From sequence record ON782582.1: a stretch of DNA of 64,000 nt; one strand, 5' to 3'. The position numbers were made by a program, and so were the translations under genes. This document shows positions 4,087 through 4,622 of the stretch, one piece after another. The stretch comes from Escherichia phage ECP52. Numbering within the stretch: the first letter of the stretch is position 1; every line of letters starts with the position of its first letter. The notes under the pieces are model-generated. The model did no database searches. It had not been told where the DNA came from and worked only from the letters and a program-made list of their open reading frames with translations.

Positions 4087-4587
4087 ATGATTAAAATTAA
4101 TACTACGTATCAAATGAAAAAACCATCTGAAATTGATTTCCAGACAATGTCGAATACGACTGATAGCAAGTTTTGGGAACTTCTTGGTACAACTGGCGGA
4201 TATCCTTTTACTGTTATTAGTGTTAATAGCGGAATTCTCATTGGTACAGTGTACATGGAAATTAGAAACTATTATGGAAGGGTATCATCATTCATCATCT
4301 ATGAAGAAGATTTCAATTTATTGACAGAAATTGAAAAAGAAGAACAAGAAAAATCCCATATTGATATGGATTTAGTTTCTATGTATGTAACACCAGTTGA
4401 AAAAATTGAAGACCCGACTGATTTGTTGTGTAAGGCAGTTTATATTCGTCGTCCATTCGCGAATCCGATTGGCGGTTGGGTAACTGATCAGTGGATTGAA
4501 GATGGTGTTGAACTTCTGAACGTAGTTCATGCTGGAGAGTACTCTGTAGTTCCTCGCAGCGCAGTGATTAATGTTCGTGTAAGCTAG
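4087..4587 (+). CDS. Hypothetical early protein, 166 aa; C-terminal paralog of the 4661 ORF
   Basis: ATG at 4087; C-terminal segment VTDQWIEDGVELLNVV resembles ITDQWVEDGVKLYNVV of the next ORF. Confidence 0.55.
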   Translation: MIKINTTYQMKKPSEIDFQTMSNTTDSKFWELLGTTGGYPFTVISVNSGILIGTVYMEIRNYYGRVSSFIIYEEDFNLLTEIEKEEQEKSHIDMDLVSMYVTPVEKIEDPTDLLCKAVYIRRPFANPIGGWVTDQWIEDGVELLNVVHAGEYSVVPRSAVINVRVS

Positions 4588-4622
4588 TTTACAAACTCTT
4601 GGGATCAGAGTATAATGATCCC
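4587..4622 (+). promoter_or_regulatory. Early promoter with the -10 hexamer inside an inverted repeat
   Basis: GTTTAC 4587-4592; TATAAT 4611-4616; inverted repeat GGGATCA (4601-4607) / TGATCCC (4616-4622). Confidence 0.5.

What the first reader, a model, noticed from the sequence alone, without database searches (positions are those of the whole stretch)
4587..4622. Early promoters whose -10 hexamer lies between the arms of an inverted repeat (seven instances)
Seven GTTTAC/TAnnAT early promoters in the window have a 7-13 bp inverted repeat bracketing the -10 element. Three have perfect arms either side of a GTTTAC/-10 pair: GGGATCA/TGATCCC (4601-4607 / 4616-4622), GGTAGAG/CTCTACC (47037-47043 / 47058-47064) and GGTACAGG/CCTGTACC (50446-50453 / 50469-50476). 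Two more are perfect but differ in placement: CTGTTCCTC/GAGGAACAG (13445-13453 / 13481-13489) and CAGTAGTTGAT/ATCAACTACTG (5184-5194 / 5212-5222), the latter with no GTTTAC -35. Imperfect versions occur at 43711-43761 and around 50047-50090. The upstream arm lies before the transcription start, so this is not simply an mRNA hairpin. The downstream arm often contains the Shine-Dalgarno of the first gene. The pattern suggests a DNA-level operator or cruciform, or the promoter-early-stem-loop cassettes reported (as I recall) to mediate modular gene shuffling in T4-like genomes.
Basis: seen in the sequence. Interest (0 to 1): 0.45.

Follow-up and report, generated by a model that had tools for sequence, protein, structure and literature searches.

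The report
Hairpins wrapped around T4 early promoters
About half of the early promoters in this T4-like phage sit inside a conserved inverted repeat, a published motif (promoter-early stem-loop) that most likely folds as an RNA hairpin only on transcripts arriving from upstream genes, separating neighbouring genes and sometimes hiding the next ribosome-binding site.

Summary
The window is a Tequatrovirus (98.7% to phage PE37), and its + strand is the T4 early strand. Of 16 early promoters, 8 have a perfect stem of at least 7 bp with the 5' arm in the spacer and the 3' arm after the -10. Shuffling gives 0.54.

T4 has the same repeats. Across 70+ loci from diverse T4-like phages, 48% of GTTTAC promoters carry such a stem, against 4% when shuffled. 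At orthologous promoters (alc, 30.7, motB) the arm sequences differ between lineages but stay complementary.

The arms share no common sequence, so this is not an operator. The loops of 8-27 nt make a cruciform unlikely. No T-tract follows, so these are not canonical terminators.

Promoters with a canonical terminator just upstream almost never carry the stem (4/31 against 101/213). Promoter-free intergenic gaps carry ordinary hairpins.

My best reading is an intercistronic RNA hairpin that exists only on read-through transcripts and is built from the promoter's free positions. In four promoters it masks the Shine-Dalgarno sequence; 47027 and 59004 are weaker cases.

This matches the published PeSL motif (Arbiol 2010; Comeau 2014). 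It is a known kind and of modest interest. RNA against DNA is favoured, not proven.

The parts
4587..4622 (+). motB early promoter with a tight hairpin. -35 GTTTAC is at 4587-4592 and -10 TATAAT at 4611-4616. The arms are GGGATCA 4601-4607 and TGATCCC 4616-4622, with an 8-nt loop. Both arms lie upstream of the inferred transcription start.
   Evidence: -22.4 kcal/mol, z -4.3. T4 has GGGACCA/TGGTCCC, a compensatory double change at window 4605/4618. Relatives show G.U intermediates and a further compensated form, GGGGTCA/TGACCCC.
5182..5224 (+). Promoter without a GTTTAC -35, upstream of ORF 5249-5518. -10 TACTAT is at 5200-5205. The 13-bp arms are ATCAGTAGTTGAT 5182-5194 and ATCAACTACTGAT 5212-5224. 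The 3' arm is part of a conserved leader motif.
   Evidence: -20.2 kcal/mol, z -4.5; the leader is repeated at 13191 and 16601.
13435..13489 (+). Early promoter with a wide, Shine-Dalgarno-masking hairpin. -35 is at 13435-13440 and -10 at 13459-13464. The arms are CTGTTCCTC 13445-13453 and GAGGAACAG 13481-13489, extendable to 14 bp with G.U pairs. The 3' arm contains the GGAGG Shine-Dalgarno sequence.
   Evidence: -23.2 kcal/mol, z -4.95; the Shine-Dalgarno sequence is predicted unpaired at 0.80 in the promoter's own transcript and 0.00 in read-through RNA.
43705..43760 (+). alc early promoter with a wide, Shine-Dalgarno-masking hairpin. -35 is at 43705-43710 and -10 TATAGT at 43729-43734. The perfect core is 43716-43724 / 43749-43757, extending to about 43712-43728 / 43745-43760 with a bulge and one G.U pair. 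The 3' arm contains GAGGA.
   Evidence: -23.4 kcal/mol, z -5.1. Orthologues in over 10 lineages have different, mutually complementary arms. Predicted Shine-Dalgarno accessibility is 0.70 in the own transcript and 0.01 in read-through RNA.
47026..47064 (+). cd.3|cd.2 early promoter (T4 Pe133295) with a tight hairpin. -35 is at 47026-47031 and -10 TATTAT at 47050-47055. The arms are GGTAGAG 47037-47043 and CTCTACC 47058-47064, with a 14-nt loop.
   Evidence: -16.3 kcal/mol, z -5.1. The sequence is identical in T4. The T4 record carries a note on this promoter. Several relatives have an extra ORF inserted directly after the cassette.
50045..50095 (+). 30.8 early promoter with a wide hairpin. -35 is at 50045-50050 and -10 TAGTAT at 50069-50074. 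The arms are TCCTTTGT 50059-50066 and ACAAAGGA 50087-50094. The 3' arm holds the Shine-Dalgarno sequence. A canonical terminator lies at 49996-50017.
   Evidence: z -2.85; Shine-Dalgarno 0.84 own, 0.01 read-through. Orthologues in other genera, which keep the upstream terminator, lack the stem.
50437..50476 (+). 30.7 early promoter with a tight hairpin. -35 is at 50437-50442 and -10 TATTAT at 50460-50465. The arms are GGTACAGG 50446-50453 and CCTGTACC 50469-50476.
   Evidence: -16.1 kcal/mol, z -4.0. Orthologues give an own-partner stem of mean 9.4 bp against 5.0 bp for cross-lineage partners.
59003..59056 (+). A second copy (94%) of the alc promoter-hairpin-Shine-Dalgarno cassette, upstream of an unrelated gene (alt.-3-like). 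The stem is imperfect, with one G.U pair and one A.C mismatch.
   Evidence: -16.8 kcal/mol, z -4.05; repeat family D13. The T4 homology breakpoint at 58984 lies at its left edge.
3508..3557 (+). motB.2 early promoter with a wide, imperfect hairpin. -10 TATTAT is at 3532-3537. The arms are TCCTCGGT 3515-3522 and ACTGAGGA 3550-3557, with one G.U pair. The 3' arm holds the Shine-Dalgarno sequence.
   Evidence: -19.4 kcal/mol, z -5.25; Shine-Dalgarno 0.64 own, 0.00 read-through.
34250..34285 (+). frd.2 early promoter with a weaker tight hairpin. -10 TACTAT is at 34274-34279. The arms are AGGGTA 34259-34264 and TACCCT 34280-34285. As RNA the stem extends to 12 bp with G.U pairs.
   Evidence: z -2.6; the same in T4.
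8889..8906 (+). rIIA.1 early promoter with its hairpin inside the spacer: TACCACA 8889-8895, loop AGGA, TGTGGTA 8900-8906. It overlaps the first two bases of the -10. This is the PeSL subclass 'between -35 and -10'.
   Evidence: a minor class: 5% of promoters against 1.3% when shuffled.
49996..50017 (+). Canonical intrinsic terminator (UUCG-loop hairpin followed by a T-tract) just upstream of the 30.8 promoter. It is an example of the alternative form of punctuation.
   Evidence: Across loci, promoters with such a terminator within 75 nt upstream rarely carry the bracketing stem.

Best explanation
The inverted repeats are selected stem-loops that function as RNA.

T4-type early genes are packed head to tail on one strand. 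Transcripts started at upstream promoters run through each downstream promoter. Those read-through RNAs contain both arms and fold a stable hairpin of -12 to -23 kcal/mol. The promoter's own transcript starts inside or just after the 3' arm, so it lacks the hairpin.

In short promoter-filled gaps of 54-96 nt, the -35, TGn/-10 and Shine-Dalgarno sequences are fixed. The only free positions are the spacer and the first transcribed bases, so the hairpin is built from them and ends up wrapped around the -10.

The hairpin acts as intercistronic punctuation on read-through RNA. In the 'wide' class (3509, 13436, 43706, 50046; 59004 has the same geometry but no predicted gain in its own transcript) the 3' arm is the Shine-Dalgarno sequence. 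The gene is then predicted to be translated only from its own early promoter. In the 'tight' class (4588, 47027, 50438, 5177, 34251) the hairpin lies just upstream of the ribosome-binding site. There it most plausibly forms a 3'-end or decay barrier, or an attenuator, for the upstream message.

Shown here:
- The stems exist, are non-random, and are kept by compensatory change.
- At sequence level they are anticorrelated with upstream terminators.
- Shine-Dalgarno masking is predicted for a subset.

Inferred, not shown:
- That the active molecule is RNA.
- The actual effect on translation, termination or stability.
For: Non-randomness:
- 8 of 16 promoters against 0.54 (shuffle), 1.13 (partner swap) and 4.5% at control sites.
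- 48% against 4.4% in 133 distinct promoters from 42 T4-like loci.

Selection for pairing rather than sequence:
- Orthologous alc and 30.7 promoters have unrelated arm sequences in different lineages. Own-partner stems average 9.1 and 9.4 bp, and cross-lineage partners 5.1 and 5.0 bp.
- Formal covariation on an in-register subset: 4 pairs with changes on both sides, score 0.238 against 0.133, with 0 of 500 shuffles reaching it.
- T4 against the window at motB: GGGACCA/TGGTCCC becomes GGGATCA/TGATCCC.

Action on read-through RNA:
- Stem of at least 7 bp in 4/31 promoters with a canonical terminator within 75 nt upstream, against 101/213 without. In the first set it was 1/21 against 48/86, p=1.3e-5.
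- The 30.8 promoter, which follows a terminator in most genera, has no stem there.
- In the window, long gaps (109-145 nt) hold a separate terminator and short gaps hold the wrap-around hairpin. Promoter-free gaps carry ordinary UUCG hairpins, some with no T-tract right before the next Shine-Dalgarno sequence.

Shine-Dalgarno masking:
- Predicted unpaired probability, own transcript against read-through: 0.64/0.00 (3509), 0.80/0.00 (13436), 0.70/0.01 (43706), 0.84/0.01 (50046).
- The Shine-Dalgarno sequence is masked in read-through context for 6/14 promoter-proximal genes against 4/57 other genes, p=0.003.

Sense-strand bias:
- Stem polymorphisms are G.U 21 against A.C 11.
- Fold z-score is -2.51 on the sense strand and -2.10 on the antisense strand, p=0.03.

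Precedent: T4 e, soc, I-TevI and others use a promoter placed inside a hairpin that hides the ribosome-binding site (PMC2988022).
Against: - RNA against DNA is not settled. The G.U:A.C ratio of 21:11 gives p=0.11, and an earlier interior-mismatch count was 7:9.
- When orthologous promoters are collapsed to groups, the terminator exclusivity is 0/8 against 11/41, p=0.17.
- Overlap of 3' arms with the Shine-Dalgarno sequence (17/38) is no higher than under uniform placement in these short leaders (19 expected).
- Tight and wide forms replace each other at the same orthologous promoter, so Shine-Dalgarno masking cannot be the universal function.
- About 40% of promoters have no stem, terminator or internal hairpin by my criteria. 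Some orthogroups never have one (motA, rIIA.1).
- Two of the six 'masked' promoter-proximal genes (4661, 16637) are masked by other structures or are sensitive to the context folded.
- Transcription start sites were inferred from promoter geometry and not mapped.
Confidence: 0.55

Rival explanations
1. The stem-loops are true transcription terminators or attenuators for upstream transcription, as the PeSL authors propose. They stop or reduce read-through so that each cassette is transcriptionally isolated.
For: - Arbiol 2010 report that one phi1 stem-loop (PeSL211/210) lowers lacZ expression as much as rrnB T1.
- The bracketing stems are anticorrelated with canonical upstream terminators.
- One RB49 bracketing stem is followed by a T-rich tail.
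Against: - None of the window's stems is followed by a T-tract. The scan calls only 49996-50017 as a terminator on the + strand in that region.
- Tails are A-rich across lineages.
- Downstream middle genes such as pseT (after alc) are described as depending partly on extension of early transcripts (PMC2988021). Efficient termination at every cassette would conflict with that.
- The lacZ assay does not separate termination from translational or stability effects.
Confidence: 0.2
2. The repeats matter mainly as parts of mobile promoter cassettes (PeSLs). These serve as recombination linkers for gene gain, loss and exchange, and the stem may be a target for a recombination protein.
For: - A 54-nt promoter-hairpin-Shine-Dalgarno cassette is present twice with unrelated flanks (43705-43758 and 59003-59056, 94%).
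- Promoter families D1, D4 and D8 are repeated.
- Indels abut cassettes at 5255, 47081 and 58984.
- 9 of 52 breakpoints lie within 60 nt of a -10, against 1.5 expected at random.
Against: - Against other gene boundaries the enrichment is not significant (6/14 against 17/73, p=0.18).
- Arm sequences differ between promoters, so the stems themselves provide no homology.
- Recombination does not explain compensatory maintenance of pairing at orthologous promoters, or the anticorrelation with terminators.
- This reading is compatible with the best explanation rather than an alternative to it.
Confidence: 0.12
3. The repeat acts in DNA, either as an operator for a dimeric regulator or as a cruciform that hides the -10. 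An example would be a switch contributing to the unexplained shut-off of early promoters a few minutes after infection.
For: - The pairs are almost all Watson-Crick, so both strands can fold (antisense z -2.10).
- The mechanism of early-promoter shut-off is stated to be unknown (PMC3014915; PMC2988021).
- The -10 lies in the loop.
Against: - There is no shared arm sequence among promoters, and arms drift freely as long as they pair, which excludes a common sequence-specific operator.
- Arms of 7-13 bp separated by 8-27 nt are poor cruciform formers (general knowledge of cruciform extrusion, not tested here).
- Only about half of early promoters have the repeat, whereas shut-off is general.
- A DNA switch does not predict the anticorrelation with upstream terminators, the excess of Shine-Dalgarno masking or the G.U excess.
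Confidence: 0.06
4. The repeats are chance matches or a by-product of a partly palindromic promoter consensus in an AT-rich genome.
For: Short stems of 4-6 bp are common at control sites: 15% of control TAnnRT sites reach 6 bp.
Against: - Shuffle, partner-swap and control-site nulls are all exceeded by a wide margin.
- RNA fold z-scores range from -2.6 to -5.3, with eight of the ten at -4 or below.
- Compensatory substitutions occur at orthologous promoters.
Confidence: 0.01

Closest known systems
PeSL (promoter-early stem-loop) cassettes of T4-type phages (Arbiol et al. 2010, PMC2839356; Comeau et al. 2014, PMC4122927)
   Same: - A strong early promoter with an AT-rich upstream region, a stem-loop overlapping or adjoining it, then the Shine-Dalgarno sequence and start codon of the next gene.
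- The subclasses 'between -35 and -10' and 'overlapping the -10' are explicitly described.
- The cassettes are repeated in the genome and sit next to some indels.
- The promoter consensus given for the PST/T4 pair (TTTACW N17 TAYWAT) matches this window.
- RB49 shows the same bracketing geometry in my scan.
   Different: - For the T4/PST pair, the 2014 figure legend places the stem-loops just upstream of the promoter. Here, and in T4 itself, most wrap the -10.
- RB49/phi1 stems are described as G-run/C-run. These are heterogeneous in sequence and lack a T-tract.
- The authors emphasise termination and recombination. My data point more to read-through-specific RNA punctuation, with Shine-Dalgarno masking in a subset.
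- Terminator and mini-circle activities were not testable here.
Hairpins that hide the ribosome-binding site and have a promoter inside (T4 e, soc, 49, 25, 26, I-TevI/II/III, segB; Aeh1 mobE), as reviewed in PMC2988022
   Same: - The 5' arm lies upstream of the proximal promoter's start site, so only transcripts from distal promoters fold the hairpin.
- The 3' arm contains the Shine-Dalgarno sequence.
- Predicted accessibility switches from about 0 to 0.64-0.84 at 3509, 13436, 43706 and 50046.
   Different: - All the described cases involve late promoters and late genes; the review says so explicitly. Here the internal promoter is an early sigma-70 type, so translation would be restricted to the immediate-early period.
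- Half of the hairpins here do not touch the Shine-Dalgarno sequence.
- No translation data exist for these sites.
Intercistronic stable hairpins of T4 mRNAs (C(UUCG)G tetraloop hairpins) and stem-loops that act as 3'-exonuclease barriers in polycistronic mRNAs. This comparison rests on my own knowledge; no paper on it was retrieved.
   Same: - Stable stem-loops between co-directional cistrons, often without a T-tract, directly before the next ribosome-binding site.
- The window has such hairpins in promoter-free gaps (6990, 12267, 12495, 50869, 54791).
   Different: - The promoter-bracketing hairpins have large loops of 8-27 nt that contain the -10, not tetraloops.
- They are absent from the transcript made by the promoter they enclose.
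Rho-independent (intrinsic) terminators
   Same: A stem-loop at the end of a gene. Its presence is anticorrelated with that of bona fide terminators.
   Different: No U-tract follows any of the window's stems, and the loops are much longer than the usual 3-8 nt.

Membership tests
PeSL (promoter-early stem-loop) | Strong sigma-70-type early promoter (-35, about 17 nt, -10) with an AT-rich upstream region | tested here: met
   GTTTAC N17 TAnnAT with TGn and A/T-rich upstream sequence at 15 sites, plus one site without a -35. This matches the PST/T4 PeSL consensus TTTACW N17 TAYWAT. Promoter activity was not measured.
PeSL (promoter-early stem-loop) | A stem-loop adjoining or overlapping the promoter. 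Five positional subclasses are described, including between -35 and -10 and overlapping the -10. | tested here: met
   - 8 of 16 promoters have stems of at least 7 bp bracketing the -10, well above all the nulls.
- One stem lies inside the spacer (8889-8906).
- Three promoters have a separate upstream terminator hairpin.
- Fold z-scores are -2.6 to -5.3.
PeSL (promoter-early stem-loop) | Intergenic position, followed by the Shine-Dalgarno sequence and start codon of the downstream gene | tested here: met
   All sites lie in 54-145-nt gaps between co-directional ORFs, with a Shine-Dalgarno sequence and ATG 24-46 nt after the -10.
PeSL (promoter-early stem-loop) | Preferential association with hyperplastic regions and with indels or replacements between close relatives | tested here: inconclusive
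   - 9 of 52 breakpoints lie within 60 nt of a -10, against 1.5 expected at random.
- The comparison with other gene boundaries gives 6/14 against 17/73, p=0.18.
- Clear single examples occur at 5255, 47081 and 58984.
PeSL (promoter-early stem-loop) | Repeated, conserved cassette sequence able to support homologous exchange | tested here: met
   A 54-nt cassette is duplicated at 43705 and 59003 (94%). Promoter families D1, D4, D8 and D12 are repeated. The arm sequences themselves are mostly not shared.
PeSL (promoter-early stem-loop) | The stem-loop terminates or attenuates upstream transcription (shown for one phi1 element); mini-circle formation | not testable with these tools
   This needs transcription assays or PCR on phage DNA. 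From sequence alone, no T-tract follows the stems.
Promoter-inside-hairpin translational control (T4 e / soc / I-TevI type) | On transcripts from upstream promoters, an RNA hairpin sequesters the Shine-Dalgarno sequence or start codon | tested here: met
   This is met by prediction for a subset. The read-through probability that the Shine-Dalgarno sequence is unpaired is 0.00-0.01 at 3509, 13436, 43706, 50046 and 59004. It is unchanged at 4588, 5177 and 50438. Masking is enriched among promoter-proximal genes: 6/14 against 4/57, p=0.003.
Promoter-inside-hairpin translational control (T4 e / soc / I-TevI type) | The proximal promoter lies inside the hairpin, so its own transcript lacks the 5' arm and exposes the ribosome-binding site | tested here: met
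   The 5' arm is in the spacer. The own-transcript probability that the Shine-Dalgarno sequence is unpaired is 0.64-0.84 at four sites. The start site was inferred as the 7th nt after the -10 and was not mapped.
Promoter-inside-hairpin translational control (T4 e / soc / I-TevI type) | The internal promoter is a late (gp55) promoter and the gene is late | tested here: not met
   The internal promoters are GTTTAC/TAnnAT early promoters. The review states that all known cases are late genes.
Intrinsic terminator | A G+C-rich stem with a short loop, followed immediately by a U-tract | tested here: not met
   The terminator scan reports none of the bracketing stems. The tails are A-rich and the loops are 8-27 nt.
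Palindromic operator for a dimeric DNA-binding regulator | The same half-site sequence recurs at the regulated promoters and is conserved in orthologues | tested here: not met
   The arms differ at every promoter (GGGATCA, GGTAGAG, GGTACAGG, CTGTTCCTC, and so on). They are replaced by unrelated complementary sequences in orthologues.

The most novel reading that the evidence does not exclude
A subset of immediate-early genes (alc, motB.2, 30.8, the ORF at 13493, and possibly cd.2) may be translated only from transcripts made by their own early promoter. An anti-Shine-Dalgarno sequence placed in the promoter spacer would silence the gene on every read-through transcript.

This would be the early-gene mirror image of the late-only control known for T4 lysozyme, soc and I-TevI. 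It would tie the end of translation of host-takeover proteins directly to early-promoter shut-off. Downstream middle genes on the same read-through RNA would remain translatable.

A more radical reading is a DNA-level structural switch behind the unexplained shut-off of early promoters. It is not strictly excluded, but I put it at 0.06 or less.
Probability: 0.3. Interest if true: 0.55.

Novelty: new member of a known kind. Interest (0 to 1): 0.35.

Why it matters
T4 is the reference system for phage gene regulation, yet the role of the stem-loops in its promoter cassettes is unsettled. Termination, recombination and translation control have each been proposed.

Three results narrow the options:
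- The stems are maintained by compensatory evolution across genera.
- At sequence level they are anticorrelated with canonical upstream terminators.
- In several cases they place an anti-Shine-Dalgarno sequence inside the promoter spacer.

Together these give directly testable predictions. If the promoter-of-origin translation control holds, it would add an early-only counterpart to a classic late-only mechanism. It would also explain how compact phage genomes give individual cistrons their own timing inside long polycistronic transcripts.

For annotation and for phage engineering, these promoters should not be moved or trimmed without their arms.

Tried and rejected
- **RNAalifold on 24 alc-promoter orthologues.** It returned no consensus because loop lengths differ and the 3' arms are out of register. 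I used an in-register subset and an own-against-cross partner test instead.
- **Wobble asymmetry to separate RNA from DNA.** Interior mismatches gave G.T 7 against A.C 9. Polymorphisms among close variants gave 17:8, then 21:11 after adding eight more Tequatrovirus genomes, p=0.11. Sense against antisense fold z-scores gave p=0.03. The trend favours sense RNA but is not decisive.
- **Enrichment of the Shine-Dalgarno sequence within 3' arms.** The count was 17/38 against 19 expected under uniform placement, so there is no enrichment. Anti-Shine-Dalgarno 4-mers in spacers are enriched (28 against 5.4), but so is the reverse-complement control motif (33). I rejected that test as uninformative.
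- **Terminator exclusivity at orthogroup level.** The result was 0/8 against 11/41, p=0.17. The direction holds but the power is low.
- **Breakpoint enrichment.** It is significant against random positions and not against other gene boundaries.
- **Rfam.** No family matched anywhere in the window.
- **Literature.** The Miller 2003 T4 genome review is not held. I found no T4 Term-seq or TSS-seq paper. No supplement listing PST PeSL coordinates is held. I therefore could not check whether these exact sites were already drawn as PeSLs.
- **Readings rejected.** Operator, canonical terminator and chance were rejected, and a cruciform is judged unlikely; the reasons are given under the rival explanations.
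Full report
**What the window is.** A 4-kb probe matches Tequatrovirus genomes: 98.7% to Escherichia phage PE37 and about 95% to T4-group phages. 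The window's + strand is the T4 early (minus) strand. Using the PE37 and T4 annotations, the window runs srd - dda - dexA - motB.2 - motB.1 - motB - cef - goF - 39 - rIIA - rIIB - denB - ndd region - 52 - motA - asiA. It then crosses the tail-fibre genes on the other strand and continues rnh - 32 - frd - td - nrdA/B - denA - rnlA - alc - pseT - cd - 31 - rIII - 30.x - 30 - alt.

**Checking the observation.** All quoted arms are at the quoted coordinates. I listed early promoters by pattern alone (TTTACN, 16-18 nt, TAnnnT). This gave 15 good GTTTAC/TGn/TAnnAT promoters on the + strand.

For each promoter I took the longest perfect Watson-Crick stem with its 5' arm in the 17-nt spacer and its 3' arm within 45 nt after the -10. 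Eight of 16 reach 7 bp or more: 4588 (7 bp), 5177 (12-13), 13436 (9), 43706 (9), 47027 (7), 50046 (8), 50438 (8) and 59004 (7). The controls were:
- Shuffling the spacer and downstream segments: 0.54 such promoters, at most 4 in 2000 trials.
- Re-pairing each spacer with another promoter's downstream region: 1.13.
- 821 other TAnnRT sites in the window: 4.5% reach 7 bp.

As RNA, ten sites fold at -12 to -23 kcal/mol with z-scores from -2.6 to -5.3. Further instances not in the finding are 3509 (8 bp with one G.U pair), 34251 (6 bp, or 12 with G.U pairs) and 8882 (a 7-bp hairpin inside the spacer).

**Generality and conservation.** T4 carries the same repeats. I fetched 42 loci around cd and 31 around gene 39 from diverse T4-like contigs, with protein identity to the query down to about 60% for cd and 70% for gene 39. 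In the first set, 133 distinct GTTTAC promoters gave 48% with a bracketing stem of at least 7 bp, against 4.4% after shuffling.

The decisive point is what happens at orthologous promoters. Upstream of alc the arms are:
- AGTCCCTCATGTT.../...AACATGAGGACT in this phage.
- TCTCCATTTGGTT/AACCAAATGGAGA, TCCTCATCAG/CTGATGAGGA, TTATGGTAGGACT/AGTCCTACCATAA, TGGGTGTAAGG/CCTTACACCCA and CCTCGTTTGTT/AACAAACGAGG in other lineages.

The 30.7 promoter behaves the same way. Own-partner stems average 9.1 bp (alc) and 9.4 bp (30.7). Cross-lineage partners average 5.1 and 5.0 bp. On an in-register subset of 12 alc promoters, 4 of 13 pairs show changes on both sides. The covariation score is 0.238 against 0.133 in shuffles, with 0 of 500 shuffles reaching it, and slid registers collapse.

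At the finding's own coordinates, T4 has GGGACCA/TGGTCCC where the window has GGGATCA/TGATCCC. Relatives show G.U intermediates (GGGATCA/TGGTCCT, GGGGCCA/TGGTCCC) and another compensated form (GGGGTCA/TGACCCC). Selection is therefore on pairing and not on sequence. That excludes chance and a common operator.

**Anatomy.** Two geometric classes appear.
- Tight hairpins start their 3' arm 0-4 nt after the -10, so the loop is essentially TGn plus the hexamer and the arm covers the start site. Both arms lie outside the promoter's own transcript. Examples are 4588, 47027, 50438 and 34251.
- Wide hairpins start 9-24 nt after the -10 and usually use the Shine-Dalgarno sequence as the 3' arm, with CTCC or TCCTC right after the -35. 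Examples are 3509, 13436, 43706, 50046 and 59004.

Both classes occur at the same orthologous promoter in different lineages. No stem is followed by a T-tract. The only canonical + strand terminator nearby is 49996-50017.

However, these genes are co-directional and densely packed. [quoted passage not shown] Read-through RNA therefore contains both arms. Several results point that way.

(i) Promoters with a canonical terminator within 75 nt upstream almost never carry the bracketing stem. The counts are 1/21 against 48/86 (p=1.3e-5), and 4/31 against 101/213 with two genome regions. Collapsed to orthogroups the direction holds (0/8 against 11/41), but power is low (p=0.17).

(ii) The 30.8 promoter follows a terminator in most genera and shows no own-against-cross excess there.

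(iii) In the window, gaps of 109-145 nt hold a separate terminator and gaps of 54-96 nt hold the wrap-around hairpin. Promoter-free gaps hold ordinary UUCG-loop hairpins, several without a T-tract directly before the next Shine-Dalgarno sequence. Intercistronic hairpins are thus general punctuation in this genome. Where a promoter fills the gap, the hairpin uses the only unconstrained positions.

(iv) Predicted Shine-Dalgarno accessibility switches between the own transcript and read-through RNA at 3509 (0.64/0.00), 13436 (0.80/0.00), 43706 (0.70/0.01) and 50046 (0.84/0.01), and partly at 47027 (0.75/0.25). Strong masking in read-through context is found for 6/14 promoter-proximal genes against 4/57 others (p=0.003).

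(v) Sense-strand bias is suggestive only. Stem polymorphisms are G.U 21 against A.C 11 (p=0.11). The sense fold z-score is -2.51 against -2.10 antisense (p=0.03).

Against a DNA cruciform, arms of 7-13 bp separated by 8-27 nt are poor substrates. This rests on general knowledge and I did not test it.

**Limits.**
- Overlap with the Shine-Dalgarno sequence is not above chance placement (17 against 19 expected).
- About 40% of promoters have no hairpin by my criteria.
- Some orthogroups never have one (motA, rIIA.1).
- Transcription start sites were inferred, not mapped.

I therefore commit to 'read-through-specific intercistronic RNA hairpin, masking the Shine-Dalgarno sequence in a subset' at a confidence of about 0.55. 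True termination is the main rival, at 0.2.

**Comparison with what is known.** Arbiol et al. 2010 defined PeSLs in phi1/RB49. They are early promoters plus stem-loops in five positional subclasses, most commonly between -35 and -10 or overlapping the -10. One stem-loop acted like a terminator in a lacZ assay, and the cassettes mediated indels and mini-circles. Comeau et al. 2014 extended PeSLs to the PST/T4 pair, with promoter consensus TTTACW N17 TAYWAT. They described the stem-loops there as lying just upstream of the promoter. My scan of RB49 finds bracketing stems in 3 of 10 consensus promoters, against a null of 2.8%.

The window meets the structural PeSL criteria. The cassette-repeat criterion is also met: a 54-nt cassette is duplicated at 43705 and 59003. 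The indel association is inconclusive. Activity criteria are not testable here.

The Shine-Dalgarno-masking subset resembles the T4 hairpins for e, soc, 49, I-TevI and others. For those, a review notes that all cases are late genes (PMC2988022). An early-promoter version would be a new variant of that mechanism, but it is only predicted here.

**Verdict.** It belongs to a published class (PeSL). Three elements were not found in the papers I could read: the wrap-around geometry in T4 proper, the anticorrelation with upstream terminators, and the spacer-encoded anti-Shine-Dalgarno sequence at several immediate-early genes. I could not inspect the PST PeSL figure or its supplement. My rating is a new member of a known kind, interest 0.35.

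Noticed in passing
window 5211-5228, 13191-13208, 16601-16618: An 18-nt leader, TATCAACTACTGATACAG, occurs three times exactly. It always lies 11 nt after a TACTAT -10 (0.06 copies expected by chance). Partial copies occur at 13470, 33289 and 34286. It belongs to a 75-nt repeated promoter family. At 5182-5194 the spacer has become complementary to it. Its function is unknown.
   Followed up: partly
window 43705-43758 and 59003-59056: A 54-nt cassette running exactly from the -35 G to the Shine-Dalgarno sequence is present twice at 94% identity. The flanks are unrelated: alc on one side and an alt.-3-like gene on the other. T4 has the same pair.
   Followed up: yes
window 47044-47057 (T4 133300-133313, L077): The T4 RefSeq record notes that this 14-nt stretch was earlier reported as its inverted complement, and that the correction restores early promoter Pe133295. 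The stretch is exactly the loop between the GGTAGAG/CTCTACC arms. The earlier version was either a hairpin-related sequencing artefact or a real loop inversion.
   Followed up: no
window 6990-7019, 12267-12304, 12495-12532, 50869-50906, 54791-54820: A family of compact UUCG-tetraloop hairpins (GGGCTTCGGCCC / AGGCCTTCGGGCCT) sits in promoter-free intergenic gaps. Some have a T-tract. Others are followed directly by the next gene's Shine-Dalgarno sequence.
   Followed up: partly
window 49486-49824 (between rIII and 30.9): This stretch is 98.9% identical to a region of Escherichia phage muut (146 kb), where a tRNA-Gln is annotated. It is 93.7% identical to a record named Campylobacter phage A150. 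The rest of the query does not match those records. Possible causes are horizontal transfer or contamination of those records.
   Followed up: no
window 4635-4656: A second hairpin (AUCUUUU...GAGAGAU) pairs the motB Shine-Dalgarno sequence. It is predicted to mask it in the promoter's own transcript as well (unpaired probability 0.03).
   Followed up: partly
window 4625-4628: A GGAG followed by an A-rich stretch lies 3 nt after the motB-promoter hairpin and is not followed by a start codon. It is conserved in T4 and in distant relatives (L057, L058). It is a candidate RegB cleavage site.
   Followed up: no
L005 about 8876-9430; L082 3686-4213; L084 3690-4220; L085 3691-4218; L086 3344-3871: In several close relatives, an ORF of about 175 aa (MSEWFEE...) sits between the cd.3|cd.2 promoter cassette and cd.2. 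In the window and in T4 the cassette drives cd.2 directly. T2 and RB9 also lack cd.4/cd.5.
   Followed up: partly
window 5257-5456: ORF 5249-5518 (89 aa), downstream of the -35-less promoter, is largely deleted in T4. The homology breaks just after the start codon. Among the fetched loci the ORF is found only in L048.
   Followed up: partly
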